NCBI GenBank assembly: GCA_951406725.2
Contig: OX597838.1
Span: 27,652,001 to 27,716,000 of the forward strand
Source of the DNA: Octopus vulgaris
Taxonomy: Eukaryota
Length of the DNA stretch: 64,000 bases
Direction of reading: 5' to 3'
Shown here: in pieces, positions 1,015 to 63,453 of the stretch
Numbering within the stretch: the stretch's first letter is position 1
How the letters are laid out: every line of letters starts with the position of its first letter
The notes under the pieces: model-generated
The model's database searches: none
What the model was told of the DNA's origin: nothing
The model's input: the letters and a program-made list of their open reading frames with translations, nothing else
Program-made: the position numbers and the translations under genes

Positions 1015-1545
1015 TCTCTCTCTCTCTCTCCCTCTCTGCCACTTGCTTTGTCCATCTGTTTCTCTCCCCCCCTCTCTCTCTCCCACTTGCTTTGTCTGTT
1101 TCTTCATCCATCTTTCTCTTTGTCCATCTGTTTCTCTATTCATTTTTCTCTCCCTTCCTTCTCTCTGTTTCTTTTTTTTTCTCTCTCTCTCACTCACATC
1201 CCTTTCTTTCTCTCTCTCTCTCTCTCCCTCTTCCCTGCCCTCTCAGTCTCTCTCTCCCTTTCTGTCCTTTCTCTCTGTCCCTTGCTGTCCCCTTCTCTTT
1301 CTCCATCTCTCTCTCTCTCTCACTCACACCCCTTTCTCTCTCCCTCTTCCCTGCCCTCTCTGTCTCTCTCCCTTTCTGTCCTTTCTCTCTGTCCCTTGTT
1401 GTCCCCTTCTCTTTCTCCATCTGTTTTTCTATCCATCTCGCCTTCTCCTTTCTCTTGCTCTACCTCCTTCCCCTGTCCCCCTCCTCATGCCTTTCACTCT
1501 CTCTCTCATACCCTCACACACATTCACTCCCCCCCCCGTCCACCC
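1015..1545. repeat. CT-rich polypyrimidine low-complexity tract
   Basis: Mostly C/T on +, with an internal duplication (1250-1310 vs 1365-1420). Confidence 0.9.
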
Positions 1546-2639
1546 TTCTCTGTTATCTGCAAGAAATACAAATCCCAAGAACCAGATATTCAAACTATCC
1601 CATTGTTCGGAACCAAACAGTATTTTGATCTCATAGGATCAACGTTCAGGAAATAAGCTCCAGCAACAGTGAAAACCCTGACCGGTGATGGGGCAGCCAC
1701 GTTTCCTTATGTAACTTAGACAAATCTTCGGTTTGTCTTTATGTGGTTAAGATTCAACTTGACGACAAACTGACTACACTTTTTTTTCCTTCCTCCTCCC
1801 CATTTTCTTCTTCCTTTTCTTTCCTTTTCCGTTCCTCTTCCTCCCCCCCGCCTCCTCCTCCTCCCTTCTGTGGGTTGTATTTACAAAAATATACCATCAT
1901 AAATGTCAGTGTTTATAATTTGATAATGCCATTCAAATGTATTAGTAAATATCACAACCGAGAAATTGCTTTGAAGCACGTCTGGCTCTCTGTGAATGAC
2001 TACGATGACAACAACAACAATAACAACAGCAACATCACTAGGCAGAGGAGACGATGTTCACCTCCCTTTCCCTCCAATACTTTCAAGGTTTTCTAATATT
2101 TTTTTAATTATTTATTTATTTTCTTATTTTGTTTTTTTTACTTGCTTTAGTCATTGGACTGCAGCCATGCAGCGACCCCCACCTTGAAGGGTTTTAGGTC
2201 GAACATGTTTCGTTGCCAGTATCTGCTTTCTGAGACTGGTACTTAGTCTTATCAATTCTTTTGCTGAGCTGCTAAGTTACAACTGGGATGTAAACAAACC
2301 AAACACCTGTTGTCAAGTGGTGGTTGCAGACAAACACAAAAACATGCATATATCATCATCATCATCATCATCATTTACTGTCTGCTCTCCATGCTGGCAT
2401 GGGTTGGACAGTTTGACTGGAGCTGATGAGCCGGAGAGCTGCAGCAGGTTCCCGTCTGATCTAGCATGGTTTCTATAGCTGGATGCCCTTCATCACGCCA
2501 ACCCCTCCAAGAGTGTAATGGGTGCTTTTACATGCCACCGGCATGGGTGTCATTTACCTGACGCCTGCCAACGACTACGATTCACGGGTAGGTGCCATTT
2601 ACATAGCACCAGCAACAACCACAACTACAGTGTACGATG

Positions 2640-2975
2640 AGTCCCCCTTTGGTCATGACACAGACCATGGGATTGCACCTAGAAAGTTACCCTCCCAGGC
2701 ACAAGTCCGCGCAAGGTTGTTTATGGAAGACCAGCAGTCGCCCATGCATACCGGCCTCCTCTTCTCTCCATGCCACCAGTGTTATCCAAAGGAAAGGCAA
2801 AGGGGCCGATACAGCTTGGCACATGTGACGTCGCAACTCATTTCTACAGCTGAGTGAACTGGAGCAACGTGAAATAAAGTGTCTTGCTCAAGAACACAAC
2901 ATGCAGCCCGGTCTGGGATTCGAGCTCACAACCTCACGATTGCAAGCCCGACGCTCTAACCACTGAGGCATGCAT
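2640..2975 (-). mobile_element. tRNA/CORE-type SINE family D
   Basis: Minus strand has a tRNA head (cagtggttagagcg...cgaatccc) and CORE-like gtgttcttgagcaagacacttta. Second copy at ~31860-32190. A related head lies on + at ~3047-3360. Confidence 0.8.
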
Positions 2976-3004
2976 ATACATATATATATATAAACTATAT
3001 ATGT

Positions 3005-3043
<39 letters not shown>

Positions 3044-4055
3044 GTGAAGGCGCGTGGCTTAGTGGTTAGGGTGTTTGGTTATGATCGTAAGGCCATGTGT
3101 TCAATACCTGGTGGCACATTGTGATCTTGAGCAAGACGCTTTATTTCACATTGCCCCAGTCCACTCATCTGGCAAATATGAGTTATACCTGTAATATTCA
3201 AAGGGCCAGCCTTGTCGCATTCTGTATCACGCTGAATCTCCCTGAGAACTACATTAAGGGTATGTGCGTATGTGGAGTATTCAGCCACACAAGCAGAAGA
3301 CTGTCCCATTGATCGGATCACTTGGAACTCTTTGTTGTTGTAACCAATGGAGCACCACTTATAAATCCATGCGTATAAGTTGGGCTTCCCCATGGTTTCC
3401 ATCTGCCAGATTCACTCATAAGGCATTAGTCTGCCCAGGGCTATACTAGAAGACACTTGCCCAAGTTGCTGAGCTGTGGGTTTGAACCCAACACCACCTG
3501 GTTGCAAAACAAGCTTCGAAAGCACACAACTGATAGTTTTGAAAATACTAAAGACTTTCAGTGAGATAACCTTTTTCATTATGAAACTGATGTCCAGAAC
3601 ATAAAATTAAGACAAAATCTTTATGGAATATTTTAATTATGATCATTTTTTTAAAAAATAAGGTTTATTATACCATAAAACCAAAAGCGTTTTTTTTTCT
3701 CCCTCTTCTCCACTCCCCCTCTCTTTCGCTCTCCCTCTTCAATTTCTCCAACTCTCTTTACTCCACCTTTCTCTCTTCTACTTCCTCTCTTCTCCAAGTC
3801 TCTCTTCACCTCTTTCTCGCTACTCCGTATCTCTTCTCCATCTCTCTCTCTCCCTCCCTCTAGGCTGATTGGTGTCAAAAGTATTGAATATTATTCTTCA
3901 GGAAATCATTGGCACTCATGGTTAGATGCATATAAAACATGTTTTATGCTAATCACCTGATTCTTGGCGAATTTGTTGCAAAAGTACAGAAGGGGATTAT
4001 CACAATTTTAGGGAACTTTTTCTTTGTATCAATTGACATAATAAAAAAAAAACAC

Positions 4056-4210
4056 GAGTGGCTGTGTGGTAAGCAGCTTGCTTACCAACCACATGGTTCC
4101 GGGTTCAGTCCCACTGCATGGCACCTTGGGCAAGTGTCCTCTGCTATAGCCCCAGGCCGACCAAAGCCTTGTGAGTGGATTTGGTAGACGGAAACTGAAA
4201 GAAGCCCATC

Positions 4211-4270
<60 letters not shown>

Positions 4271-4492
4271 GTGTGCGTGTATGTTTGTGTCTGTGTTTGT
4301 CCCCCTAGCATTGCTTGACAACCAATGCTGGTGTGTTTATGTCCCCGTCACTTAGCGGTTCGGCAAAAGAGACCGATAGAATAAGTACTGGGCTTACAAA
4401 GAATAAGTCCTGGGGGTCGAGTTGCTTGATTAAAGGCGGTGCTCCAGCATGGCCCGCAGTCAAATGACTGAAACAAGTAAAAGATAAAAGAA
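4056..4492 (+). mobile_element. SINE family A copy
   Basis: Collinear with 28784-29192. Confidence 0.85.
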
Positions 4493-6605: not shown

Positions 6606-6787
6606 CCGGAGTAAACACATAAATGTGAAACAGGGTGGAAAAAAGAGTACTCAAATACCAGTGGTAGAGTAATATGCTTTATTTAAAGCAGCAGAAAATT
6701 CAACAAAACCTGTTACTCTGAGTTTCACGTTGCAACGTGAAACTCAGAGTAACAGGTTTTGTTGAATTTTCTCCTGCTTTAAATAAA

Positions 6788-6790
<3 letters not shown>
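6606..6790. mobile_element. Spacer-less palindromic insertion with a half hammerhead (probable inverted PLE pLTR fragment)
   Basis: 6677-6732 and 6733-6788 are reverse complements (55/56 nt). GAAACTCAGAGTA at 6739-6751 is a hammerhead 3' half. A unique tail (6606-6676) is on one side. Embedded in (TA)n. Confidence 0.7.
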
Positions 6791-6847
<57 letters not shown>

Positions 6848-9121: not shown

Positions 9122-9487
9122 TATAAGCAAACACCACTGTCATTTTCAGTCCCTTGTCTCGGTTACGAACGAAATATTACCTTGTTTGGAAACAGTTAAG
9201 GGTTGACTATAGGAAGGACATCTTGTCTCAGAAAATTTGCTTCATAAAATTCCATCTGATCCATACAAACACCAAGAAATAGACCCTAAAGCTCTGGTGA
9301 TGATGATGTTTGTAGAGTGTGATTTGAGGGAATTTGCCTGCTATTTCTAGCTGATAAAAGGCTCACTCAGGTTTATCTGGTGATGAGTTATGTCCTGTTG
9401 TTTGGATTCTGTGGACTATTTTTGTTATTTGTCTTTATTTGTAATTGACTTACATGAAGGATAATCAAATAAAATAATAATGTTCTT

Positions 9488-9944
9488 ACATTTGATGGAT
9501 ATTTGTCCTCATCTTGTTTTTTGTTAACACAACGTTTCAGCTGATATACCCTCCAGCCGTCATCATGTGTCTTGGGGAAATTTCAAACCTGGGTTCTCAT
9601 TCCTAAGGTATTTTTTGATATTATTATTATTATCATCATCATTGTCGTCGTCGTCGTCATCATTCAGATCACTACCTGGAATCGAACTCGGAATCTTGGG
9701 GTTAGTAGCCATATAGCATAGTGATTAAGAGCGTGGGCTACTAACCCCAAGATTCCGAGTTTGATTCTAGGTAGTGACCTGAATAATAATAATAGTAATA
9801 ATGATAATAATATTGAAAAATACCTTAGGAATGAGAACCCAGGTTCGAAATTTCCCCAAGATACCTGATGAAGGCTGGTGGGTGTATCAGCCGACATGTA
9901 GTGTTAACAACAAACAAGACGAGGACAAATATCCGTCAAATGTA
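9488..9944. mobile_element. Fold-back non-autonomous element with tRNA-like head and minimal hammerhead, 12-bp TSD
   Basis: Arms 9488-9710 and 9736-9943 are imperfect reverse complements. AATAATGTTCTT is duplicated at 9476-9487 and 9945-9956. tRNA-like segment at ~9708-9779. Hammerhead-like motifs at 9861-9904 (+) and 9527-9570 (-). Confidence 0.8.
9861..9904 (+). ncRNA. Degenerate minimal hammerhead ribozyme (GAAA changed to GACA)
   Basis: ATAC-CTGATGA-A-GGCTG-gtgggtgtat-CAGCC-GACA-TGTA-GTGT. The mirror copy at 9527-9570 keeps GAAACGTT but has ATGATGA in place of CTGATGA. Confidence 0.65.
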
Positions 9945-10002
9945 AATAATGTTCTTGTTTTTGTTATTGTCTCTCATTTGTTGTTTTTGTTTTATTTTCC
10001 AG

Positions 10003-14400: not shown

Positions 14401-14975
14401 GCCAGCTAAGATGGTGCTGGTATCTGCCACGTTTGGATGGTGCTTTTCACATGCCACTGACACAGAAGCCAGTCAGGGCAAGGGGGCTGGCATTGACCAT
14501 ATTCGGATGGTGCTTTTTACGTGCCACAAACACAGGGACCACAACTACAATTTCCATTTGATTGTGACAAAAGAAAATCATGCTAACAACTTGTTAATTA
14601 TGACCACTGAAGGTAGTTTACTTAATTTTCTGAACCAACTTTTCAGGTAGCTTGGCCAGCTAGAAATAGCAGTCAAATCAGTCACAAACAAAGACGGACA
14701 CAATGGATAACACACCCAGTAATTAAGCTTGGCTGGTCGTACGTGGTTGGATTCACCTGAATATCAGTATTTTATTTTTATTTTTATTTTTTTATCTAGT
14801 AGCCTTCACATACACACACTCAAGTATGTGGATGTATGTGTGTCCAACCTATGGAAGGCAGACGTTAAAGGATGGTGATAATTGTGTGTGTGTGTGAATC
14901 CAAACTTGAATGTTGGTTTACGTTCTTTGTCAGCTTCTAAACATTTTATTTCTCTAATTCTTTCTCCAAATCCAG

Positions 14976-15116
14976 AGCATGATTGTTGACCAAACTATAG
15001 AGAAAGTTTCTTTTTGCGCTCCTGATCGAAATCACGATAAAGGTTTTGCTTACATCTGCCGAGATGGTACGACGAGGCGGTGGATATGCCATGGTTTCAT
15101 GGCTATCAAAGAATCA
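14976..15116 (+). CDS. numb: Numb PTB-domain internal exon ([47 protein letters not shown])
   Basis: tccAG acceptor at 14974-14975 and GTAAGT donor at 15117. 141 nt, phase 0/0. Near-identical to the diagnostic Numb/Numblike PTB sequence [17 protein letters not shown]...[14 protein letters not shown]. Confidence 0.97.
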
Positions 15117-16219
15117 GTAAGTGTCAGTAAATTTTTTATTGTTCTTTTTTTTTTCCTAATCTTTTCTCTTTGTTTTTTTTTTTTTTTTTGCAACCAATTT
15201 TTAATTTTTAATTTCTAATACTAATTTTTACAGAAAGCATAATTACTAACAAAATTACATCATTTTCCATTTTCACCTTTTTCCTTTCATCCCTCTGGCT
15301 TATAATTTCCCCCCCGACAGCTACTTCTCCGTATGTCTATGAATGTAGGAAAACAGATCTTCGAAACTAAATGTTTACATACAAAATATTTAAACACATT
15401 AATAACAATCATTATAATAAACGAAATAATAAGTAAATAAATAAATGATAATAAATTAATTAATTAAAAGCTACTCAACTGAAAATTAGAGCTCAGACAA
15501 TTTTATTGTTCAATTTGTTATTTGTAACGAGCTGAATATTATTTTCTTTCAAATTACATTTTGTTGGGGACAGACTGTGGAACAGTTAAATGTTATTAGT
15601 ATTTTTCTCTGCTTTTAATTAGAATGTATGTGTGTGTATATGTGTCTGTCAGTACATGGGTATCTGTGTGTGTGTGAGTCTGTCTATCTGCTCTGTTGTA
15701 TATCTGTGTGTGTGTCTGTCTGCTCTGTTGTATATCTTTGTGTGTGTGACTGTGTGAATGTGTTTGCATTCATTTTCATTCCTCGTTATATCGAAGTCTG
15801 CTTGTCTATCTCCATGCGAAATATCATTGGCGGCAATTTAGTTATGATGCCTAAAATAAAACGGTTTTGTTTTTTTTTCCCCCCCACCAAAACGTCTTTG
15901 TTTCACCAATCTAGTTTGAGAGAGTGTGAAGTTTGAACCAGAAGGCAAGTCTTCCATTCCTGCCACACTCCCACCCCCACCACCATCATCACCTGCTGCC
16001 ACCCCCCCCCCCTTCCCATTGGCCAGTGATGCCTCATTACCATATATCTTCCACAAATTATTCAGAAAGTAATTACAGTTTTAAAACACTGTTAATTATT
16101 TAGTCAACAAGAACTTGACCTGCATTTTGCTCTGTATTCCAATTATCTCTTTCTCACCACCACCACCACCCTCTCTCTCTCTCTCCAACTCTATCTCTGT
16201 GTCTGTCTGTCTGTCTGCT

Positions 16220-23461: not shown

Positions 23462-24504
23462 GTATGTTTATGTATAATATATGTGTATGTATATATATAC
23501 ACACACACATACATAAGCATACATACACACAGACACATGTGTATGTATATGTGTGAGCTCTTAACACTTGAGAGCCAGTGTTGATTTCTTTGTCTCTGTA
23601 ACTTAGTGGTCTGGCAAAAAGAGATTGATATATTCAAACTTCAGTCATTTATTGACTTCTTCCCCTCTATACCACACTCATGATTGCATCAAAACACACT
23701 TTTTTTATGTGTGTGTTGGTTTTTTAAAATCTTTACCAAACTCTCTCTTTAACACACATTTTCTTTATATTCATTTCCATAGTAAAATCTATTTTTTAAT
23801 TTCCAAAGCGCTCTTACACGGTAAATTTTTGTTTTTGTTATTCGTGTTTTAAATATCAAAACCTAAAACTAATTTTTTTCGTTAATTATGTGGAATGTCA
23901 TGGCTTCTTAGAATGTTGTAGCATTTTGTTTAATTAACTTGAAATGCAGCTTTTATAATTCATAAATTTTGAAATTTTTTTTTTTTTACGTCTCTGGACT
24001 ATAACAGCTAATTAGGTTTTATTTATCTCCTAATTCTATGTCAGCACCTTCTTTTGTTATATATTGCTTGACAAGACATTCATTTTACTTGGAAAATTTT
24101 TTTCTGGTGTAACATACTTTCCTTTGTTTACTAATTTCCATATCAGAACAAAAGTTTTTAGCTAGCTTTAAATGACTGAGGCAATGTTTTTCTCTGAGGA
24201 GGCAAAATTATATTGAAACACAGGTGTCAGACACTTTGCTAATGCTATTTCAAGCATGTTGTGTATTTTTAACACACTTGGCCTCTTAAAAGAATATGTT
24301 CTCCTGGACTAAATTTCCATGGCGATCTCTCTTTTATGTTTCTGAGTACATGAATATGGTGTAAATGATGTACATGCCATTGTTTACTGGTGGTTTTGTA
24401 GCTGCTTGTGATACAAAATGCTTTAGGTCAGTAACAATGTTATTGGTTATAAATCTTATTACTATTAGTTAATATACCAATATGTGTGTATAGAGAGACA
24501 TATT

Positions 24505-24893
24505 CGCAGGAGTGGCTGTGTGGTAAGTAGCTTGCTAACCAACCACATGGTTCTGGGTTCAGTCCCACTGCGTGGCATCTTGGGCAAGTGTCTTCTGCTA
24601 TAGCCCCGGGCCGACCAATGCCTTGTGAGTGGATTTGGTAGACGGAAACTGAAAGAAGCCTGTCGTATATATATATATGTGTGTGTGTGTCTGTATTTGT
24701 CCCCCAGCATTGCTTGACAACCGATGCTGGTGTGTTTACGTCCCCGTCACTTAGCGGTTCGGCAAAAGAGACTGATAGAATAAGTACTGGGACTTACAAA
24801 GAATAAGTCCCGGGGTCGATTTGCTCAACTAAAGGCGGTGCTCCAGCATGGCCACAGTCAAATGACTGAAACAAGTAAAAGAGAGTAAAAGAG
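24505..24893 (+). mobile_element. SINE family A copy
   Basis: Collinear with 28784-29192. Confidence 0.87.
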
Positions 24894-25679
24894 TATTCTT
24901 TTATCTTCCACATCTGGTTTAAACCTTATCTAGATGTATTTTTGATCAGATGTTGTTTTCAACTATTTGAACTTGGGTCTCTCATAACCCTATAGAACCA
25001 TTAGGCCAGAACTTAACCGAGTTTCCATAAATTATAAGGAATTGAAAGTACAATGCTTTCTACTCCTAAATGGGACACCAGTCTGTCATAGAATTTAACA
25101 TCCAGTATAATTACTTGTGTTCGCTTTTGCCAGACTGGAGCAACATAAAATGAAGTGTTTTGCTCAAGAACACAACATGCCATCTAATCTGGGAATTGAA
25201 ACTATAACCTTATGATTGTGAGTCCAACACCCTAACCACTTGGTCACATGCCTTTTTAACCTTTTGCTCATCTAAAGCATTTTGATAAGTTTGTCCTAAA
25301 TGTCGTTGCTTGCTTTCAAACTTTAGTTAGTCTTTGTTTCATACACTGCGAATAATATAAAGCTTTCCTTACATAAGTCCCAAGTTACACTAATAGTTTA
25401 AAAAATCGGGAATGTGAGCCATATATGGTGTATGGATGCTAAGGAAATATGTCCTACCGGTCCAAAGCATTTTCTTAAGTTTTACTTAACCCTTGTTTTT
25501 TTATACGTTCGGAGTAATATGAAGTTTTTCTTTCATAATTCCCAAGTTATTCTGGTGGTTGGAAAAAATTGGGAACATGCTTCATACATGATGCATGGCA
25601 GCCAGGGAATTGTGCCAGGGAAAAGCAAAAAGGTTAAGGATAAAGGGGAAACAAATATTTTTAAAAAATAGTAAAGATA

Positions 25680-28732: not shown

Positions 28733-28783
28733 TACACAGAAAAAAACAAGGAGAGAAACAAGGAATATATATATATATATATA

Positions 28784-28954
28784 GGCGCAGGAGTGGCTGT
28801 GTGGTAAGTAGCTTGCTAACCAAGCACATGGTTCCGGGTTCAGTCCCACTGCGTGGCATCTTGGGCAAGTGTCTTCTGCTATAGCCCCGGGCCAACCAAT
28901 GCCTTGTGAGTGGATTTGGTAGACGGAAACTGAAAGAAGCCTGTCGTATATATG

Positions 28955-28985
<31 letters not shown>

Positions 28986-29192
28986 GTGTCTGTGTTTGTC
29001 CCCCTAGCATTGCTTGACAACCGATGCTGGTGTGTTTATGTCCCCGTCACTTAGCGGTTCGGCAAAAGAGACTGATAGAATAAGTACTGGGCTTACAAAG
29101 AATAAGTCCTGGGGTCGATTTGCTCGACTAAAGGCGGTGCTCCAGCATGGCCGCAGTCAAAATGACTGAAACAAGTAAAAGAGTAAAAGAGT
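28784..29192 (+). mobile_element. tRNA-derived SINE family A (with internal microsatellite), full length
   Basis: Head ggcgcaggagtggctgtgtggtaag...ggttcagtccc with A/B-box-like motifs, CORE-like cttgggcaagt, internal (TA)n(TG)n and an (AGTAAAAG)n tail. Many near-identical copies in the window. Confidence 0.88.
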
Positions 29193-29193
29193 A

Positions 29194-36400: not shown

Positions 36401-37415
36401 CCTGTGTATGTAAAAAAAGTGAAAAAAAGGTCTGGATAGCCAGTTCTGGAATGTTGTTGATATTACATCTATTCGGTTAAAGCTGACTTCGGGGTGGGAA
36501 AAGGGTATTAGCCACAACAATAACTCAAAGCAATATTACAGAATTATGTTTCAACATCACTTTGTTACTTAACGATCGCTATTATAAACACAGCAAATAT
36601 TTACCATTATATACATTTGCTTTATTGAATTGTGTTTGTGGAACGGTAATGGGTGCACACAGATTTTTTTTTTTTTTTCAAATTTGCGTATATAATATTA
36701 TTATAGTGTTGTGTTTGATTGAAGGTTTAACTAAAGCCAAGTTAACTGTCGAGTACAATGATCAATGCCATTAGTGTGAGAAACAATCTCGTTAATGTCT
36801 CTAACCTTTTGCTGGATTCCTGACAAGATTTCTGGTAATTTGTTCTTAATGTTTCCTATACAGCCTTTCCGAAAGAAGTAATATTGGTTTCATTATTGTT
36901 CATTATTGTTGTAGATGTTCATCGACATTGCCCGGCCTTTTATACGGCTCATTATGGATATTCATTTCGACAATTCTGTTTCATCTTCCCTTGTCTTCTA
37001 CCTCCGTCGTTCACCTTTAAATAGACATTTGCGTTTCTAAATAGATAAGCCGAGTATGTCAGATGGTCTTATCTCCTACTTTGTTCCCGGAAAATCACCA
37101 GAGAATTATCTTTTGATTATTGATTTCAAATATGATAGCTAATCACTCTTCCTTTTTCTGTTTGGTCTTAGAAGTGAGGAAAAAGAAAATAGTTCGCCAC
37201 ACACCTTGCAGGACTCTAAATGGCTGTGTAGTTAAAAAGTTTGCTTTCTGATCATGGGGTTACAAATTCCGTTCAATAATTTATAACAGAAGACACTTAG
37301 GGTGTGTTACACAGTGGCACCATAGGCAAGTGTCTTCTATAATAACTTTGATCCAATCAAAGCTTTGCATGTGGATTTAATAGATGGAAACTGAAAGAAG
37401 CCCTTCATATATATA

Positions 37416-37577
37416 GGCACAGGAGTGGCTGTGTGGTAAGTAGTTTGCTTACCAACTACATGGTTCCCGGTTCAATCTCACTGCGTGACATCTTGGGCAA
37501 ATGTCTTCTACTATAGCCTCGGGCCGACCAAAGCCTTGTGAGTGGATTTGGTAGATGGAAACTGAAAGAAGCCCGTC

Positions 37578-37619
<42 letters not shown>

Positions 37620-37825
37620 TTGTGTGCCTGTGTTTGTTCCCCTAGCACTGCTTGACAACCGATGCTGGTGTGTTTACGTCCCCGTAACTTAGCGGTTCGG
37701 CAAAAGAGACCGATAGAATAAGTACTAGGCTTACAAATAATAAGTCGCGGGGTCGATTTGCTCGACTAAAGGCGGTGCTCCAGCATGGCCGCAGTCAAAT
37801 GAGTGAGACAAGTAAAAAGGAAAGA
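37416..37825 (+). mobile_element. SINE family A copy
   Basis: Collinear with 28784-29192. 5'-truncated copies also occur at ~16877-17232 and ~38372-38670. Confidence 0.85.
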
Positions 37826-41772: not shown

Positions 41773-42912
41773 GATACTACCATCACTACTACTACTAATA
41801 ATAATAAAAATTCAAGTCGGTCATACCTTCCTGTTTTGCATGTGCAGAGGTTGACTTTCATTCCCACCCAGGTATGTTTCAATGATATTTTTTCAGTTTT
41901 CCATACCAGTGGCTACTGGCAACATTTATAATCTCAGATGTTGTAAAATCAACCCTGCTGGAAATAGCAGCCAAATATCTATCTGCTGCATCAGAACACC
42001 TGTTCTCGTTAAAACTTTGAATATGTCGATTTAAGCATATCTTTACGAATTTTTATGAATTCCAAAAAATAATGTTTCTATACGCTCTTTTCTATCTACC
42101 TGTCTCTCTACCTAGTTATATTGACCTGTCTTTTTAATGTATCAATTTACCTGTCTATCTCTTTACTTACACAGCTACCTGTCTATCTACGTATATATCT
42201 ATCTACCTCGTTATTTATCTGTCTGCTTAAGTATGTATCTGTTTATGCCTACCTTTCTGTCTATATCACAGATAGACTACCCCTCCCTCACAACAAATGG
42301 AGTGGTCATTACTGGAATGACTATCAACAAAACATTGAATCACCTGAGAGGTTCAACAAGAACAGTCCATCTATCTGTTTGTCTGTCTACCTGTCTATTG
42401 ATTATCTGTTTATCTATACTACTACCATCCTCTCTCTGTGGCTATGGCCAGGAAGCATTTCGCCATAGGTCTGCTCAATCAGGGTTCATCTACAACAAAT
42501 ACACATTGACACATACATACAACGTATGTTGTGTTGTGGCATAATATTTGCACAAAAATCTGACAAAATTAGTCGTAAATGATTATCTGCCCCTTTCACC
42601 ATTTCGCTATCTCTCCCCCCCCCTCTCTCTCTCTCACACACACAGAGCTAAATACATGCTTTATATAGATATAGCTATAGATATATTTATGCATGTATGT
42701 ATTTAATGGAAGTACACACAATAATTAATCATCGTAAATAAATTCCACTTTCATAAATGAATATGCTTTCTTTAAAACAGCATGTTCAGTTCTCTGGCTT
42801 GACACAGTCTTCAGGATTGTCAAACCCTCCCAAACCATTCTATCCATGCCAGCATGGAAGCCAGGCATTAAATGATGTGTATGAATATTTATATATACAT
42901 ACATATACATAT

Positions 42913-42966
<54 letters not shown>

Positions 42967-42968
<2 letters not shown>

Positions 42969-43358
42969 TCTTTTACTTGTTTCAGTCATTTGACTGTGGC
43001 CATGCTGAAGCACCACCTTTAGTCGAGAAAATCAATCCCGGGACTTATTCTTTGTAAGCCTAGTACTTACTCTATCGGTCTCTTAAGTTACGTGGACGTA
43101 AACGCACCAGTATCGGTTGTCAGGCGATGTTGGAGGGGCAGACACAGACACACAAACATATACACACACATCCATATATATACATACATACATATGATGG
43201 GCTTCTTTCAGTTGCTGTCTACCAAATCCACTCACAAGGCTTTGGTTGACCCGAGGCTATAGTAGAAGACACTTGCCCAAGGTGCCACGCAGTGGGACTG
43301 AACCCGGAACCATGTGGTTGGTAAGCAAGCTACTTACCACACAGCCACTCCTGCACCT
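42967..43358 (-). mobile_element. SINE family A copy, reverse orientation
   Basis: Reverse complement of the family A consensus. Confidence 0.85.
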
Positions 43359-44268
43359 ATATATATATATATATATATAGCCAAGTGAAATTGTTGTGGC
43401 CATTGCTGGTGTCGTGTAAATGGCACCCATGGAATCATAATCATGGCCGTTGAAGGTTGCAGGATCTTTGAATGTTGGGCCTCACAGAGGTGATAACAAG
43501 TGACTGAGACCTTGACAATATGCTGTGCTTGAGAAGACCTGCCAAGCCAAGTGAAACCATAGTGGTTGCCATTGCCGGTGTCGGTGTCACATAAAAAGCA
43601 TACTTGGTGTGGTTGGCATTAGGAGGGGCATCCAGTTGTAGAAACCGTGCCAGATCAGACTGGAACCCCTGCTGCAGCTCTCTGGCTCAGCAGTTTCCAG
43701 TCAAACCACCTAACCCATGCCAGAATGGAAAGCAGATGTCGAATGATGATGATATCTATGTATGTATGTAGGTATGTATATGTATGTATATATTAGCTGT
43801 AATGCCAATTAGTATTGACAATTGAAGCAAATGACATTATTAAAGTATACAGGTATATACACCGACAGTGAGAAAGAGAGCAACAGTTCAATGAATAAAA
43901 CAACAACAAGGTTACATTCGACCAACTATAAACAGAAACACATAAGTAATCCAATTAAGAAGCAAGAAACAGAAGGGTGAGCGTGGGGGAAAGAGGGTGT
44001 TGTTGTTGGGGGTAACGTTGAGCTGTGAATCAGTTTCAGTTCAGTTCAAATGCTAATGATGTCCATGGGAAAACTTAGAGGGGAGAGACTTCTGTTGCAG
44101 CACAAGCCTCTTGTTCTTTACTTTACCTGAAGTACACGGGGCACTGGCCTAACTATTCATCAGTGGTGGAGGTCACTGACCGTTAGCAGTCGGACAAAAA
44201 AAATGTTTCAGATATTCGACTGAGATTATTTCGTGTGCATGAAAGAAGTGTGTGTATCTATCTATCTA

Positions 44269-45803: not shown

Positions 45804-45865
<62 letters not shown>

Positions 45866-45949
45866 AGGTCCCGGGTTGATTCGGGGTTAACCACAGTAAG
45901 TAAGGTACTCAATACATAGCAGAGTAAAATTAATTTATTATATAGAAGG

Positions 45950-46000
45950 AGCTTCTACAGGACTAGTACTGTTTCATTCAAGAGAAATCTTCAGGAAGCT
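45950..46000 (-). ncRNA. Minimal type I hammerhead ribozyme motif (PLE pLTR, left arm)
   Basis: Exact reverse complement of 51746-51796. Confidence 0.8.
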
Positions 46001-46327
46001 ATTTAACAAGAATTGTCAAGGAGTCAGTGGTAAGTTAGATGAAAGAATAGATAAATAAAAAAATAGATAAATAAAAAAATAAAAAAATAAAAAAATAAAA
46101 ATGAAAAATAAAAAAAAAAAAAAAAATAAAATAAAATAAAAAATATAAAAAAATATAAAAAATATAAAAAATATATATAAAAAAATATATATATAAAATA
46201 TATATATAAAAAAATATATATATAAAAAAAGGGGGATAGAGTTATAGGTAAATAAGGAGATTCTTACTTATACCTATACACACATGTATACGTATCTACA
46301 CACACATACACACATACACATATATAT

Positions 46328-46372
<45 letters not shown>

Positions 46373-46823
46373 CCTACACATACACACATACATACATACA
46401 AATATACATATACATATATATATATACAATCCAATACAGGCCCATTCCCTAATTTTAATTTTATTATCTTCATTTATTACTTTTGTTATCTTTGATCGCT
46501 AGGGCTAAGAATCCTGGCAGTGGCTGCCTGTCCATTTGTCTGTCTACTAGAAGGCAAGTACTCATTCCCGCACGCACACTCATTAGCACGTACATTCACC
46601 CATTCGTACACTCATACACATACACGTACGCACGCGTTATATTCATACATACAAACATCTACATACGTTCACGTTTATACACATACGTACTCGTACCTAC
46701 AGATTCGTGTCTACACTTTAGGAGGCTAGTCTATACATATACACCAATAAATATACATATATATATATATACCCGCACATACATACACACACACACATAT
46801 ATACTCCTACATACAGATACATA

Positions 46824-46869
<46 letters not shown>

Positions 46870-47053
46870 CATACACCTACACACATACATATACACACAC
46901 ATACATACACATATATATACATACACAAACATATATACACACACATATATATACATACACACATACACACATACATACGTATACATACATACATACATCC
47001 ATACATCCATACTTACATGCATTTATGCGCATACACACACCCATCTATATATA

Positions 47054-47090
<37 letters not shown>

Positions 47091-47419
47091 TCACACATAC
47101 ATATACAAATCTACGCACACACATACATACATACACGTATACGCATACACGCACATACACATATACATGCGTGCATACACGCACATACACATATACATGC
47201 GTACCCATACACGTGCACACACGCACGCGCATCCATATATATACACACACACACATATATATATACACACGTGTGCAAGCATACATACATACTCATACGC
47301 GCACACATACTTACAAATACATATATGCACACACTTACACACATATATATACATACACATATACATGCATACATACATATATGCATACATACACACACGC
47401 ACTCATATATATATATATA

Positions 47420-47815
47420 TCTATATATATATAAAGCTGAAGTTGTCTGTGTGTGTGCGTGTGGCAGGTTTGGTAGCCTTTAACTAACACTATCTCCTCC
47501 GAGATCCTGCGGCGCAAGTTGACCAAAATTGGAAGTATGATGGAAGAAGGATTGTTCTTCATTCCGTAGAAGAAAAAATTTAAATTGAACCATGTTAAGA
47601 CCAAAAATTATTTACATAAAAAAGGTGCTTTTTTAGTATGAAAATCCCTACTTTTTTGACAGCTGTTTCGCCATTTTTTTGTGTATTTCAACCAGGAAGT
47701 TGTTCACTTAAAGAGAATAACAAGCTACATAATGCAAAATTTTTACTTTTCAAAACTTCCATCCTAATGGGTCAAAAAGAAAACAAACCCGAGCAACGCC
47801 GGGCTATACTGCTAG
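47420..47815 (+). mobile_element. Non-autonomous Helitron
   Basis: 5' TCTATATATATATAAA. 3' hairpin CCCGAGCAACGCCGGG at 47788-47803, then terminal CTAG. Inserted between A (47419) and T (47816) with no TSD. Absent from the mirror position in the other inverted arm. Confidence 0.88.
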
Positions 47816-47836
47816 TATATATATATATACATACAT

Positions 47837-47869
<33 letters not shown>

Positions 47870-48507
47870 CATACATATATATATACACATACACATATAT
47901 ATACATATATAGACATACATACACATACATACACATACACATACGTACACACATATACACACATATATATATATACATATATATATATACACATATACAC
48001 ATACATATATACACATATACATACATATACATACACACACACATACATATATACATATACACTGATACACATACCCATACATACACATGCATATACTTAT
48101 ATTACTACATACTCACATATATAAACATATATACATATACACACATACATATATACCTGTACATACACATACGTATGCATATATATATATATACATACAC
48201 ATATATACACATATATATATATATATATATATACATACACACACACACACACATACATATACACATATACATGTATACATACGCAAAAATGATACGCATA
48301 TATACACATACACACACACAGACAGATGCATATACATACATATATATATATAAATAAACTACATATCTATATAAATACATACATAATACACATATACACA
48401 CACATATATATACATTCATGCATATACATATACAAGTATACATACACAAACATACACACACACGCGCACACATACATATACACACACACATATACAAATA
48501 CATACAT

Positions 48508-48566
<59 letters not shown>

Positions 48567-48957
48567 CATGTACACATATACATATGTATATATATATCAA
48601 CAAGGGAGGGTAAAGTTAATTAGTTATTAATCAATTTCATCAAGTGTTCAGTATGTAAAGGGACCATTATTATTTTGAGTAAACAATGTTAGAGGGAAAA
48701 AAATTCTCTAAGTAGTGGAAGAGGCTAAAAAACTTTATTGGCTGCTATTTCTAGAAAGTTTAGTATGTGGCAAAGTAATTTATTTTATTTTCCTAAGCCC
48801 TAATTATATAATATTTTATACATACATACACATACATAAGCACATACATTTACACATACATATGCATATACATATATACACATATACATACAAACCCATA
48901 TACACATATACACACACACACACATACGAGCACATACATATATATATACATACATAC

Positions 48958-49000
<43 letters not shown>

Positions 49001-49230
49001 AATATATATACATATATATTTTTTTACATGCATACATACACACACACACACATAATACATGCGTATATTCCTACTGTACCCATGCATTTCTATACATATA
49101 TACATACATACATACGATACACATATACAAGCGTGCACATATAATATGTGAAAGGTCTTAGGAGAAAAGGTAATCGGGGGTGCTAGGGGAACAGTGGGGT
49201 TGGGGGGGGGGTTGTAGGGGGGGTTTGTCA

Positions 49231-49632
49231 TCAATCAGGTTGCCGGGTAGGTCTATAGTTCTTGTAGTTCGCATACTTCTTATGCATACAATTTGGGGAG
49301 TGTTCTGAAAATTTGTTAAGGAGAGGGCCTTTGGCGACCAAGATCTCTAGGCTCTCTGATATGCATAGGTCACAGCAGGTATGTCCTCCTGTGTACGAGC
49401 GCGCCTTCTGTAGTAGTTTCCACTTGGTCTTGAAGGGGATTGAGTTCCTTTTAAGGTACCAGATGTGGGCGGCGAGGGTAGTTTGGTTGGATTTATCCTG
49501 TCGCCGGAACGAGTGTGTATGTGCATACCAGCGGGTCTTAAAGCTGTTTGACGTCATTCCAATGTAGGATTTACTTTTATCGTCAAGGCCTGATCTTACC
49601 TCGCATTAATATACTAGGTCCCTCTGTAGGCA
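49231..49632 (-). pseudogene. C-terminal GIY-YIG endonuclease domain of a Penelope-like element, truncated and with an in-frame stop
   Basis: Extending ORF 49231..49557 upstream gives CLQRDLVY*CEVRSGLDDKSKSYIGMTSNSFKTRWYAHTHSF...CDLCISE...LLNK...CMH. This is the LVY...YIG-T--FK-R--H pattern with the CxLC-E / LLN / CxH tail typical of PLE endonucleases. TAA stop at 49606-49608. Confidence 0.9.
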
Positions 49633-50300
49633 TATATATATATATATGTGTGTGTGTATGTGTGTATGTATGTATTTGTATATGTGTGTGTGTATATGTA
49701 TGTGTGCGCGTGTGTGTGTATGTTTGTGTATGTATACTTGTATATGTATATGCATGAATGTATATATATGTGTGTGTATATGTGTATTATGTATGTATTT
49801 ATATAGATATGTAGTTTATTTATATATATATATGTATGTATATGCATCTGTCTGTGTGTGTGTATGTGTATATATGCGTATCATTTTTGCGTATGTATAC
49901 ATGTATATGTGTATATGTATGTGTGTGTGTGTGTGTATGTATATATATATATATATATATGTGTATATATGTGTATGTATATATATATATATGCATACAT
50001 ATGTGTATGTACAGGTATATATGTATGTGTGTATATGTATATATGTTTATATATGTGAGTATGTAGTAATATAAGTATATGCATGTGTATGTATGGGTAT
50101 GTGTATCAGTGTATATGTATATATGTATGTGTGTGTGTATGTATATGTATGTATATGTGTATATATGTATGTGTATATGTGTATATATATATATGTATAT
50201 ATATATATGTGTGTATATGTGTGTACGTATGTGTATGTGTATGTATGTGTATGTATGTCTATATATGTATATGTATATGTATGTGTATATATATATGTAT

Positions 50301-50332
<32 letters not shown>

Positions 50333-50335
50333 ATG

Positions 50336-50366
<31 letters not shown>

Positions 50367-50680
50367 GAGTGCGTGTGTGTATGTATGCATATATGTATGT
50401 ATGCATGTATATGTGTATGTATATATATGTGTGTAAGTGTGTGCATATATGTATTTGTAAGTATGTGTGCGCGTATGAGTATGTATGTATGCTTGCACAC
50501 GTGTGTATATATATATGTGTGTGTGTGTATATATATGGATGCGCGTGCGTGTGTGCACGTGTATGGGTACGCATGTATATGTGTATGTGCGTGTATGCAC
50601 GCATGTATATGTGTATGTGCGTGTATGCGTATACGTGTATGTATGTATGTGTGTGCGTAGATTTGTATATGTATGTGTGA

Positions 50681-50717
<37 letters not shown>

Positions 50718-50901
50718 TATATATAGATGGGTGTGTGTATGCGCATAAATGCATGTAAGTATGGATGTATGGATGTATGTATGTATGTATACGTATGTAT
50801 GTGTGTATGTGTGTATGTATATATATGTGTGTGTATATATGTTTGTGTATGTATATATATGTGTATGTATGTGTGTGTATATGTATGTGTGTAGGTGTAT
50901 G

Positions 50902-50945
<44 letters not shown>

Positions 50946-51396
50946 TATGTATCTGTATGTAGGAGTATATATGTGTGTGTGTGTATGTATGTGCGGGTAT
51001 ATATATATATATGTATATTTATTGGTGTATATGTATAGACTAGCCTCCTAAAGTGTAGACACGAATCTGTAGGTACGAGTACGTATGTGTATAAACGTGA
51101 ACGTATGTAGATGTTTGTATGTATGAATATAACGCGTGCGTACGTGTATGTGTATGAGTGTACGAATGGGTGAATGTACGTGCTAATGAGTGTGCGTGCG
51201 GGAATGAGTACTTGCCTTCTAGTAGACAGACAAATGGACAGGCAGCCACTGCCAGGATTCTTAGCCCTAGCGATCAAAGATAACAAAAGTAATAAATGAA
51301 GATAATAAAATTAAAATTAGGGAATGGGCCTGTATTGGATTGTATATATATATATGTATATGTATATTTGTATGTATGTATGTGTGTATGTGTAGG

Positions 51397-51441
<45 letters not shown>

Positions 51442-51745
51442 ATATATATGTGTATGTGTGTGTAGATACGTATACATGTGTGTATAGGTATAAGTAAGAA
51501 TCTCCTTATTTACCTATAACTCTATCCCCCTTTTTTTATATATATATTTTTTTATATATATATATTTTATATATATATTTTTTTATATATATTTTTTATA
51601 TTTTTTATATTTTTTTATATTTTTTATTTTATTTTATTTTTTTTATTTTTCATTTTTATTTTTTTATTTTTTTATTTATCTATTTTTTTATTTATCTATT
51701 CTTTCATCTAACTTACCACTGACTCCTTGACAATTCTTGTTAAAT

Positions 51746-51796
51746 AGCTTCCTGAAGATTTCTCTTGAATGAAACAGTACTAGTCCTGTAGAAGCT
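51746..51796 (+). ncRNA. Minimal type I hammerhead ribozyme motif (PLE pLTR, right arm)
   Basis: AGCTTC-CTGAAGA-tTTCtcttGAAt-GAA-ACAG-tactagtc-CTGT-A-GAAGCT. Stem I is 6 bp, the CUGANGA/GAAA core is intact, stem II is weak, and stem III is 4 bp with a palindromic ACTAGT loop. The predicted GUA cleavage site is after 51790. Confidence 0.8.
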
Positions 51797-52084
51797 CCTT
51801 CTATATAATAAATATATATATATATATATATATTTATTATATAAGGTATCTTGGGAGGGTAGACAGATAGGGTATTCCCAATGTAGCACTCAACTTGAGT
51901 TTTAGGCTATCTATGCTGTTGGATGCCAGACAAATATTGAAATTCTTCAGGTGTAGAAAATCCAGACTTTACAAAGGTAAAATTGTTGTGTGGGTTTAGC
52001 AAAGAGGGAAATATAATCCAAATAAAGAAGACAAAAGAAGACTTTAAAACATTTGGAGACTTCCTTTGTCTTCTTATTTGGATT

Positions 52085-57640: not shown

Positions 57641-57676
<36 letters not shown>

Positions 57677-57677
<1 letters not shown>

Positions 57678-58000
57678 TGTTGTGTCTGGGGAGATTCATT
57701 TTTTTTTGTGCCTTATAATTTAACACACTCACCGGTAAAATTTCCATTTATTTCTTTTTTTTATTTTCCTAAAATTTTCATTGCGTCTTACAACCTTTTC
57801 AGTAGTCTTGACTCTGTCCGTTATTTACACTGTATTCCTTTTGAAAAGGTTGCAAGACGCAACGAAAATTTTAGGAAAATAAAAATAAGAAATAAGTGGA
57901 AATTTTACCGGTGAGTGTGTTAAATCATAAGGCACAAAAAGAAAATGACTCTCCCCAGACACAACAGAATATGCTTCAACACACAAACTCATATAAAGAA
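57677..58000. mobile_element. Fold-back element: ~125-bp inverted arms with a one-sided tail
   Basis: 57677-57801 and 57842-57967 are imperfect reverse complements with a 40-nt spacer. Extra unique sequence lies on the right only. The left end abuts (TA)n. Confidence 0.75.
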
Positions 58001-60905: not shown

Positions 60906-61196
60906 TTAAAATTAAATAAGGGTAGAAATTGATATTAATCAGTTAAAAACCAGTGGCCTAGCATATTTTTAAAAAATCCGAAGATTAAAAAATATTTTTA
61001 CATACAAAATTTAGAGGACTGACCACTAAAAGTAGACAGCCTATATGCTAGATATAGACGTCAAAATCGCCATTTCCACGAAGAATGTGTTATCAAGAAA
61101 AAAACTCAGCAAAAATCCAAAGTGTAAAAATTTTTGACATCTATATCTAGCATATAGGCTGTCTACTTTTAGTGGTCAGTCTTCTAAATTTTGTAT
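60905..61196. mobile_element. Fold-back element: ~65-bp inverted arms with a one-sided tail
   Basis: 61002-61066 and ~61132-61196 are near-perfect reverse complements. A ~95-nt unique tail lies on the left. (TA)n on both flanks. Confidence 0.72.
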
Positions 61197-63453
61197 ATAT
61201 ATATATCCTTTCTGAATCCCCTATCATTATTTCTTCTCTTATATTGACTTTGTACATTCAGGATATGCTCTCACCATCTCTTTTCTCTCTTTCCAGCTGG
61301 GGAAGCTACGTATCTCCTCTTCAGCAAGATACCTGTTCCTGTTCCTCTATCATGTTTTCACCTCTCATCACCTGACATAAAGCCACCTCAACTCAATACT
61401 TCACCCACCCACCCCTGCTCAGTTGAGGTGGGGCGGGGCGGGTCTTGTCTTGTGAATATTTTGTGAATTTTTGGGACTAAATGAAATCGAGAGGATGTAT
61501 TTCAATATAAATCAGCATCCTCATCATCATCATCCTCATTTACCGTCTCTTTTTTCCATACTGGAATGTATCAAAGGTTTGACATGAATTGACAAACCGG
61601 AGGACTGCACCCAGCTCCAATATCTGCTTTGACATGGTATTTTTTTTTTGCAGTTGGATGTCCTTCCTAATGCCAACCACTTCACTTTTTTTTTTTTTGT
61701 GGATCCATCATTAGTGAGTCACCATATAACTCAGAAGACAAGACCCCCATCCCCTTCAACTGAGCTGGGTGAACTATTGAAGGATCTGAAAGTATGGTAG
61801 AGGGACATGAGTTGATGTCTTGCTGAAGGTGAATGCACGGCTCCCCCATTTGGAAAGAAAGTGGGATGTGAGGTTTAGGTACAAACATGGGAGAATAAGG
61901 ATAGAGAAACAGAAAAGGTGAGTGTTTTAGGGTGCATAAAGTGTAACAGACGATTAGAGATGGGGACTAAGCTGGATGCAGTGAACACCAGTTTGGGGCT
62001 GGTGTTAACGAACATTCATTCCAGGAAAAGCATTTATTGTCTTCCTCTCTTCCTCTCTCTTCTCTTAAATCTAACGAAGACTCAAGCTAAACCGGGTTTT
62101 TTCTTTTGTCTTTTTTTCTTTAATAATTGGTTTTAAAGATCTAATTTCATATCGTTAAACTTATATGAGATAACTCTCCACCTGGATGGCATGCCACGCC
62201 ACTCTGACACTGCCATATATGCTGGTAGGTATTTCCAACAATCTGATGGACAGAGAAAACAGGGGAAAAAATGAGACCTGCTCAGATAAATAACAGACAG
62301 CATGCACTGGATTTGAACCCTTATCCTATCTACTTGGCGCACCTTACCTTCACACTATTCTCTTTTCCTAACCATTCTAATGAAACTCTTGCACTTCAAG
62401 ACATGCTAACTGCACACCATTTCCATTCAGACATAACCACTGCACCTGGCTCTCCACAGCTCTCTACTCAAATGCATTCTTACATCTCAAGGTCTTTAGT
62501 CGTGTCTGTTTGTTTAAGTATCTTCTCTCTCCCGCTGTATGTTAATTACAATAATTAATATTGCTCTTACAACTTTTCATACTTTAATATTGATTTCTAA
62601 CACAAGCACGAGGTCATGCATTTTTGGAAGGAGAGGTGTGGTTGATTAAATCAACCCCAGTACTTCACTGGCACTTACATTATACTGTTCCCTCTGGAGA
62701 GGAAAAGCAAAACTGACCTTGGCAAATTAACAGCATGAGTCTAATTAAGGAAAGAAAGCCACAAGTGTTTTATGCATGCATGTTCAGGAAATGAAAGACA
62801 GAGGTGGAAACTCTTGAATTTGATGGCCAGTTTTAGAGAAATTTATCTCTTTTGAAAACATTTAAAAGATGCATCTATGCATCATTTGGTTAACAGAGAA
62901 GTTTCATATATGAAATCACACTATGGTTGTTTCTTGGAGAGAAAGCTTATCCATTCCTATTGATTAGCGAAGTATTCCTTTCCATGAATTACTACAAACT
63001 CTGATTCACAAAATATTTTTAAGACCACACCTAATGTTGTCATATGAGCCAAGAAAGAAGTCGCTGTCATGGTTAATCCATCTGCTAGAAATAACAGCCA
63101 AATCTCAAATGGACACCCTGCCATCTTAAAAAGGCATATTTGAAATGGCATCTTTAAATATATCTGAAGAAAAAGGAAAATATACAACAAGCATAGCTGG
63201 AACATTTTTGATCTTAAGATTAGGGTCTTCCCAAGGCGAAAGGACAGTAACAGCAACAACTGATGTCACATGGTCTTCATGTTTAGCCAACCATCATTTC
63301 CTCCTTCTTTTAACCTGCACTTAATGTCTACCAAGGACCATTCATATTGACATGAATAGTTTATGTGAAACTGCAGTCTGGATGTAACAGGCATAGCAAA
63401 AGATACACACACTCGCACACAAGCCTACATTGGTTGTACACAATGCTTTTTAA

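What the first reader, a model, noticed from the sequence alone, without database searches (positions are those of the whole stretch)
45862..51813. 6-kb Penelope element forming a giant hairpin (2.2-kb arms) with a hammerhead at each end, inside a Numb intron
Seen: 45933-~48540 and 49633-51813 are reverse complements. They differ only by a few substitutions, microsatellite lengths and one Helitron. The right arm begins exactly where the minus-strand GIY-YIG ORF is 5'-truncated (49632), and only the left side carries the ~70-nt terminal tail. Known: PLEs often integrate with an inverted pLTR at the truncation point. Unusual here: the duplicated region is over 2 kb and mostly complex (CA/TA) microsatellite, so the element appears to carry and spread microsatellite DNA. 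Inference: the Numb pre-mRNA would contain a ~2-kb near-perfect duplex.
Basis: partly seen in the sequence, partly recalled or inferred. Interest (0 to 1): 0.72.

Follow-up and report, generated by a model that had tools for sequence, protein, structure and literature searches.

The report
Microsatellite-laden Penelope hairpin in Numb intron
A young, truncated Penelope-type jumping gene sits in a Numb intron as a 6-kb mirror-image insertion with 2.2-kb arms, a known layout that is unusually large here because this family carries about 3 kb of microsatellite-rich tail; it likely arose when one RNA was copied onto both strands of the cut, and it is predicted to fold the Numb pre-mRNA into a long duplex.

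Summary
Confirmed. 45933-48541 and 49632-51813 are reverse complements (2,176 matches, 4 substitutions, 7 small indels, one Helitron); only the left arm has the 70-nt tail; it lies in a 77-kb Numb intron. It is a dead, 5'-truncated copy of a young Hydra-clade Penelope-like family (motifs compared by eye; hammerhead and (TA)n target fit). The inverted arm plus one-sided tail is published PLE architecture, and this scan has noted it before on other DNA of this genome. The hairpin is routine for the family: 34 of 34 scored pairs carry the tail on exactly one arm, 15 of 34 have arms of 2 kb or more. What differs from published Hydra elements is a 2.8-3.7-kb 3' region, about 59% TA/TG mosaic, collinear in 36 of 37 copies, so the family does spread microsatellite DNA. 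Both arms share a 95-nt deletion found nowhere else in the genome, and 694 mini-palindromes stop at the hammerhead's 5' border: footprints that favour two primings on one RNA. An RT-EN frameshift was an assembly error; no A-to-I footprint was found. The pre-mRNA duplex is predicted, not shown.

The parts
14970..15116 (+). Numb PTB/PID exon upstream of the host intron (start approximate; donor GT at 15117; intron ends near window-equivalent 92293, outside the window)
45824..45861 (.). left part of the (TA)n target
   Evidence: (TA)n at both ends of family copies
45863..45932 (-). 70-nt PLE tail (long 3' end), left arm only
45933..48541 (-). left arm: 3' part of the long copy (TA/TG mosaic 3' region with unique blocks)
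45950..46000 (-). type I hammerhead motif, Hydra-type core; predicted cut after 45956 on the minus strand
   Evidence: format from the table
46013..46014 (-). approximate site of a 95-nt deletion shared by both arms (mirror site near 51732); it removes a TATA-like box that other copies have
47420..47815 (+). non-autonomous Helitron-like insert (TC...CTAG, 3' hairpin), left arm only
48542..49631 (-). 1,090-nt loop: unpaired continuation of the long copy
49231..49632 (-). 5'-truncated C-terminal GIY-YIG endonuclease fragment with one in-frame stop
   Evidence: no Pfam hit
49632..51813 (+). right arm: inverted second copy, 5'-truncated in a (TA)n run, ending at the short 3' site
51746..51796 (+). 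hammerhead motif in the Numb sense orientation; predicted cut after 51790
51814..51833 (.). right part of the (TA)n target

Best explanation
This is one dead, 5'-truncated insertion of a young Hydra-type Penelope-like retrotransposon in a (TA)n run of a Numb intron, and its two arms were likely made when the element's enzyme primed reverse transcription on both strands of the cut from one RNA. Shown: a full unit is 5.2 kb (RT plus C-terminal GIY-YIG ORF, then a 3-kb TA/TG-rich region, hammerhead, tail); copies end at two fixed sites 70 nt apart, one per arm. Inferred: a dimeric RT-EN nicks both strands of (TA)n; one 3'-OH starts at the long site (here 3.8 kb, reaching the endonuclease), the other at the short site (2.2 kb); the two cDNAs stop independently and are joined head to head; arm length equals the shorter cDNA, so the long 3' region makes kilobase arms routine. 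A Helitron later entered the left arm. The microsatellite is cargo copied with the element and changes by slippage. Predicted: nascent Numb RNA pairs the arms into about 2.2 kb of duplex, a likely ADAR substrate, which would also mask the one sense hammerhead.
For: 34 of 34 inverted pairs scored have the tail on exactly one arm (chance 6e-11 if the ends were independent). The tail is on the shorter arm in 14, the longer in 15, unclear in 5; in the 14, each arm holds sequence that the other lacks, so neither is a plain copy of the other. Both arms belong to the same subfamily in 33 of 33 typed pairs (1 untyped), and the sister arm is nearer than any other locus in 21 of 22. The window's 95-nt deletion junction occurs exactly twice in 2.8 Gb, once per arm, and three more variants are shared by the arms and absent from the other loci sampled. 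Of 100 listed ends, 72 are in head-to-head pairs and none tail-to-tail (64 of 100, none). Both end types join (TA)n in public short-read contigs (loose ends). Frangieh et al. show that a PLE protein cuts and extends both strands, starts at two internal sites that bound the tail, and is modelled as a dimer. 3' region 2,817-3,685 nt, median 59% mosaic, in 36 copies, against 9% in the rest of the window.
Against: At this locus the tail is on the long arm and the short arm lies wholly inside it, so fold-back copying of one cDNA fits equally well; shared-private variants are somewhat more frequent in that class (17 per 4,756 against 11 per 6,731 k-mers, p=0.03). No second copy with the deletion was found, so the source element that the model needs is not in this assembly. 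Frangieh et al. saw no strand difference in start site in vitro, so the one-site-per-strand coupling is not shown. No read evidence for this locus's own junctions was obtained. The loci were chosen by likeness to the endonuclease fragment (37) or to one exact motif (13) and are not a random sample.
Confidence: 0.72

Rival explanations
1. The second arm was copied from the first cDNA by fold-back or template switch (or by self-priming on an antisense template, as Arkhipova et al. proposed for rotifer PLEs), and the endonuclease then resolved it 70 nt short.
For: It explains at once why a deletion unique in the genome is in both arms; here the short arm is contained in the long one; mild excess of shared-private variants where the tail is on the long arm; proposed in PMC3846280.
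Against: 14 of 29 resolvable pairs have the tail on the shorter arm, which one cDNA cannot template; the loop here is 1,090 nt with a 1-nt overlap, not a palindromic snap-back junction.
Confidence: 0.2
2. An ordinary single insertion was later duplicated in inverted form by host repair, or the arms were homogenised by gene conversion.
For: (TA)n-rich DNA is unstable (established knowledge); conversion could spread the deletion to both arms.
Against: The right arm ends exactly at the family's short site and starts exactly at the truncation point; the same pattern holds in 34 of 34 pairs; no host flank is duplicated.
Confidence: 0.04
3. Assembly fold-back artefact.
For: The assembly has systematic homopolymer errors in this family; I have no read support for this locus.
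Against: The flanks are unique and unmirrored; tail and Helitron are on one arm only; the arms differ at 4 sites; the break falls on a biological end site; the layout is published for PLEs.
Confidence: 0.03
4. The centre (endonuclease fragment) is a separate insertion into an older microsatellite palindrome.
For: None found.
Against: Blocks G-F-E-C-B-A are collinear at 88-100% identity in 36 of 37 other copies.
Confidence: 0.01

Closest known systems
Hydra clade of Penelope-like elements (Craig et al. 2021, PMC8557442), e.g. Hydra-1_Obim, Hydra-1_Ajap, Penelope-13_HM
   Same: C-terminal GIY-YIG, DKT, CxCX5C linker, CxxC and CxH motifs, no CCHH, canonical 3' hammerhead, (TA)n target, partial tandems; Penelope-13_HM is listed with a 966-nt inverted 5' copy.
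   Different: Listed Hydra elements are 1.1-3.0 kb; this unit is 5.2 kb because of a 3-kb microsatellite region between stop codon and hammerhead. RWR in place of RWK. Its hammerhead differs from that of Hydra-1_Obim, so it is another family. The tail is 70 nt, not 30-40.
PAc, Poseidon element of Anolis (Frangieh et al. 2024, PMC11167929)
   Same: Two internal start sites that bound the tail, AT-rich targets, both strands extended, hammerhead upstream of the start sites.
   Different: Other clade; the ORF starts inside the hammerhead there and 180 nt below its 5' border here; the one-tail-per-pair coupling and kilobase arms are not described in the parts I read.
Adineta vaga Penelope families (Arkhipova et al. 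2013, PMC3846280)
   Same: Inverted pLTR with optional tail; Pen1_Av carries a 0.9-1.5-kb captured spacer before its 3' pLTR; TATA-like box in the pLTR.
   Different: pLTRs are about 200 bp, copy number is very low, and spacers differ between copies, whereas here one microsatellite-rich region is shared by hundreds of copies.
SSR-carrying Penelope copies of penaeid shrimp (PMC7878876)
   Same: Recent Penelope copies moved together with their internal simple repeats.
   Different: No clade, hairpin or hammerhead analysis in the passages I saw.

Membership tests
Hydra-clade PLE | Single ORF, RT followed by C-terminal GIY-YIG EN | tested here: met
   Full-length copies L038, L044, L059; the apparent frameshift is an assembly error and L062 is in frame; Atlas look-alikes are GIY-YIG and RVT_1-bearing clusters; Pfam itself gives no hit.
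Hydra-clade PLE | RWK motif in place of GxKF/Y; DKT in place of DKG | tested here: met
   RWR (conservative variant) and DKT, read by eye against the sequences.
Hydra-clade PLE | CxCX5C linker, no CCHH, CxxC and CxH around the conserved E and N | tested here: met
   Read directly in the translation against the definition.
Hydra-clade PLE | Canonical type I hammerhead near the 3' end | tested here: met
   Stems I-III and core parse as in File S2 (-7.3 kcal/mol against an MFE of -8.5 for the 51-mer); in a longer context the MFE is another fold; no Rfam hit.
Hydra-clade PLE | Insertion into (TA)n | tested here: met
   Outer ends printed run into (TA)n.
Hydra-clade PLE | Generally short (<3 kb); descriptive in the paper, not diagnostic | tested here: not met
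   Unit 5,191 nt; listed Hydra lengths 1,080-3,045.
Hydra-clade PLE | RT phylogeny inside the Hydra clade | not tested
   No tree was built; the comparison is by eye.
EN+ PLE insertion architecture | 5' truncation, partial tandems, inverted 5' copy, tail on one end | tested here: met
   described
EN+ PLE insertion architecture | Hammerhead self-cleavage and TPRT activity | not testable with these tools
   Needs in vitro assays.
Naiad/Chlamys PLE | N-terminal EN, no canonical hammerhead | tested here: not met
   EN is C-terminal and a hammerhead is present.
Helitron (nested insert) | 5' TC, 3' CTAG with subterminal hairpin, inserted between A and T, no TSD (criteria recalled) | tested here: met
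   no Rep/Hel partner was sought

The most novel reading that the evidence does not exclude
One Penelope-like family, by copying a single microsatellite-laden RNA onto both strands of each cut, has recently planted a few hundred multi-kilobase near-perfect hairpins and about 700 tiny hammerhead palindromes across this genome, so that it is at once a vehicle for TA/TG microsatellites and a source of intronic ADAR substrates in genes such as Numb; the minis mark the RNA's 5' end, and the deletion shared by both arms is direct genomic evidence for one-RNA, two-primer insertion.
Probability: 0.3. Interest if true: 0.65.

Novelty: new variant of a known kind. Interest (0 to 1): 0.38.

Why it matters
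How PLEs make their inverted, one-tailed insertions is still called open in the papers read. This family gives countable footprints: a strict one-tail rule with the tail on either arm, same-source arms, a genome-unique deletion in both arms, and 694 minis with a common 5' stop. They separate double priming from fold-back and can be tested in the existing in vitro system. The family also shows a way to spread complex microsatellite and long hairpins (about 290 pairs spanning 2 kb or more, extrapolated from 100 of 1,071 ends) in an animal group where young repeats are main editing targets. The Numb copy itself is probably a neutral, recent scar, but its private variants make it mappable for an editing test.

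Tried and rejected
(1) RT-EN frameshift: 29 of 31 copies had a C6 run that breaks the frame, but contigs of all 4 runs laid add a base there, so it is an assembly homopolymer error, not programmed frameshifting. (2) A-to-I footprint in retrocopies: arm differences are A/G-rich (99 of 196) and 15 A/G against 3 T/C in pure TA context, but the alignments show TA/TG slippage and the G state is already present in other copies at 12 of the 15 sites; unique sequence shows no excess (3' region A>G 4, T>C 15; ORF 14 against 5, p=0.25). Of the window's 4 substitutions, three have A as the derived-looking or shifted state and one is a derived G. Rejected as unsupported. (3) The 95-nt deletion as a spliced intron: its ends are not GT-AG on either strand (read). 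(4) Naiad membership: rejected. (5) Rfam: no hammerhead hit; miRNA hits are low-complexity noise. (6) Expression: no RNA holder listed on record; nothing is concluded. (7) No read-level test of this locus's junctions or of an empty allele was obtained; both stay open. (8) The orthologous intron in related species could not be compared: the genome has no relatives held. (9) crashed part-way and was redone. Rows left out of the 34 pairs, from 51 long loci: L032 and L061 (outer end outside the stretch), L059 (nested mini), L056 (49-nt inverted tail piece only), and loci with no inverted hammerhead end in view. (10) Literature searches listed no paper on a long microsatellite-bearing Hydra element or on PLE double priming in cephalopods; the library is partial, and supplements other than that of PMC8557442 were not read.
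Full report
Observation. Self-comparison finds one long inverted pair in the window. Alignment gives arms 45933-48541 and 49632-51813 with 2,176 matches, 4 substitutions, 7 indels of 2-9 nt and a 398-nt left-only gap; the loop is 1,090 nt. The gap is a TC...CTAG insert at 47420-47815 with a 98% copy elsewhere and thousands of older candidates; it was not seen in the other 37 and 13 long loci, so it came after the insertion. The tail (45863-45932) is on the left only, and hammerhead motifs sit at 45950-46000 (-) and 51746-51796 (+). The host gene is Numb on the plus strand: PID exon, next exon 77,177 nt on, NumbF beyond.

The family. The endonuclease fragment has 505 first-look candidates; the 40 scored are 97-100% identical. 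In 37 copies with 10 kb of context the blocks of the arm follow the ORF in the same order in 36, and through block C in all 37. A complete tandem unit is 5,191 nt with 3,007 nt after the stop. Across 36 copies this region is 2,817-3,685 nt and 54-62% TA/TG mosaic, against 9% for the window outside the element; subfamilies differ by extra or duplicated mosaic segments. The exact hammerhead core occurs 1,726 times; 1,071 ends keep the sequence upstream of it. The protein shows RWR, DKT, YRDD, CxCX5C, CxxC and CxH and no CCHH, the diagnosis of the Hydra clade in Craig et al. (PMC8557442; main text parts 1-6 of 10 and supplement passages read). Pfam gives no hit; Atlas look-alikes are GIY-YIG and RT-bearing clusters. 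No tree was built. A frameshift between RT and EN in 29 of 31 copies is absent from public contigs of all 4 runs laid and is an assembly error.

The hairpin is the family's normal product. Of 51 long loci, 34 had a scorable inverted pair; all 34 have the tail on exactly one arm, the median shorter arm is 1.87 kb and 15 reach 2 kb. Among the first 100 of 1,071 listed ends, 72 form head-to-head pairs, 27 pairs span 2 kb or more, and none is tail-to-tail; scaled, this is about 385 pairs and 1.4 Mb (an extrapolation from two contigs). The layout of inverted 5' copy and one-sided tail is published for PLEs (PMC3846280, passages and Discussion), Penelope copies that move with their simple repeats are reported in shrimp (PMC7878876, passages), and earlier notes of this scan describe the same short-end/long-end rule in other families of this genome.

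Mechanism. Frangieh et al. (PMC11167929, parts 1-2 of 4) show both strands cut and extended and two internal start sites that bound the tail. The genomic data fit a coupled version. The tail is on the shorter arm in 14 pairs, on the longer in 15, unclear in 5; in the 14 neither arm contains the other, which calls for two RNA-templated cDNAs. The arms share a source: same subfamily in 33 of 33 typed pairs, sister arm nearest in 21 of 22. In this window both arms lack 95 nt just upstream of the hammerhead, and that junction exists only here, twice, in the genome. This needs either one RNA from a source not in the assembly, or copying of the first cDNA. For this locus fold-back cannot be excluded, and a weak excess of shared-private variants in the tail-on-long class points that way (p=0.03). 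I put double priming on one RNA at about 0.7 and fold-back at 0.2.

Minis. 694 palindromes of about 205 nt consist of two hammerheads joined at the 5' strand of stem I, with varied junctions; the 7 read in full (6 minis, one slightly longer) each have one tail. A TATA-like box lies 31 nt upstream of that point in normal copies. The simplest inference is that the RNA starts there and that the minis are run-off cDNAs primed on the 5' copy; a strong stop at the ribozyme stem is the alternative. The window's deletion removes this box from both arms, so this copy probably lacks its own promoter (inference).

Age and effect. Four substitutions in 2,180 nt give about 0.25 million years on the octopus calibration quoted in PMC13282606 (part 1 of 3); two of the four look like one slippage event and assembly errors may add, so this is rough. 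In Numb pre-mRNA the arms can form 1,458 and 719 base pairs (-2,476 and -1,159 kcal/mol). The antisense arm is transcribed first, so the one sense hammerhead would be paired as it appears. Young repeats are the main A-to-I targets in most animals (PMC9989829, passages), so editing is plausible but untested. I looked for editing fixed in retrocopies and found only slippage. The strong TG-on-sense bias of the 3' region remains unexplained. The retrozyme preprint 10.64898/2026.07.22.740005 (part 1 of 5) concerns tandem non-coding units and does not describe this element in the part read.

Verdict. Real; known architecture; a Hydra-type family that is about twice the published length because of microsatellite cargo, with useful mechanistic footprints. 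Interest 0.38.

Noticed in passing
genome-wide; examples L085-L090, and nested in L055 and L059: 694 mini-palindromes (about 205 nt) of two hammerheads whose arms both stop at the 5' strand of stem I, 31 nt below a TATA-like box; candidate marker of the transcription start.
   Followed up: partly
L038:5247 and equivalent sites: A systematic one-base homopolymer error makes 29 of 31 copies look frameshifted between RT and EN; public contigs carry the extra base.
   Followed up: yes
L058 (G000:C8:3326609-3336608): A tandem whose upstream and downstream units carry markers of different subfamilies.
   Followed up: no
L059, about 5.7 kb into the oriented locus: A mini-palindrome inserted in a (TA)n run of the element's own 3' region: the family targets its own cargo.
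   Followed up: no
3' region of all copies: The mosaic is strongly TG on the element's sense strand (TG 16,684 against CA 2,582 over 36 related copies; host flanks balanced); unexplained.
   Followed up: partly
normal copies, about 115 nt upstream of the hammerhead (deleted in part in the window): A donor-like GT, a branch-point-like motif and an AG just before stem I could define a pLTR intron as in Penelope; not tested.
   Followed up: no
L052 junction; L040, L035: Some junctions carry extra inverted or duplicated ORF pieces, which suggests repeated template jumps.
   Followed up: no
L038:5900-6110 in runs X1, X3, X12, X16: A diverged sister subfamily (about 90% alike) appears in public contigs; its 3' region was not examined.
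   Followed up: no
window 6672-6793, 9486-9945, 57672-57972, 60992-61206: Other self-palindromic repeats in the window; not checked for PLE ends.
   Followed up: no
window 4053-4491, 24489-24895, 28770-29193, 37407-37817, 42905-43376: A dispersed repeat of about 410 nt, 78-91% alike, in both orientations within the Numb gene; further possible pairing partners in the pre-mRNA.
   Followed up: no
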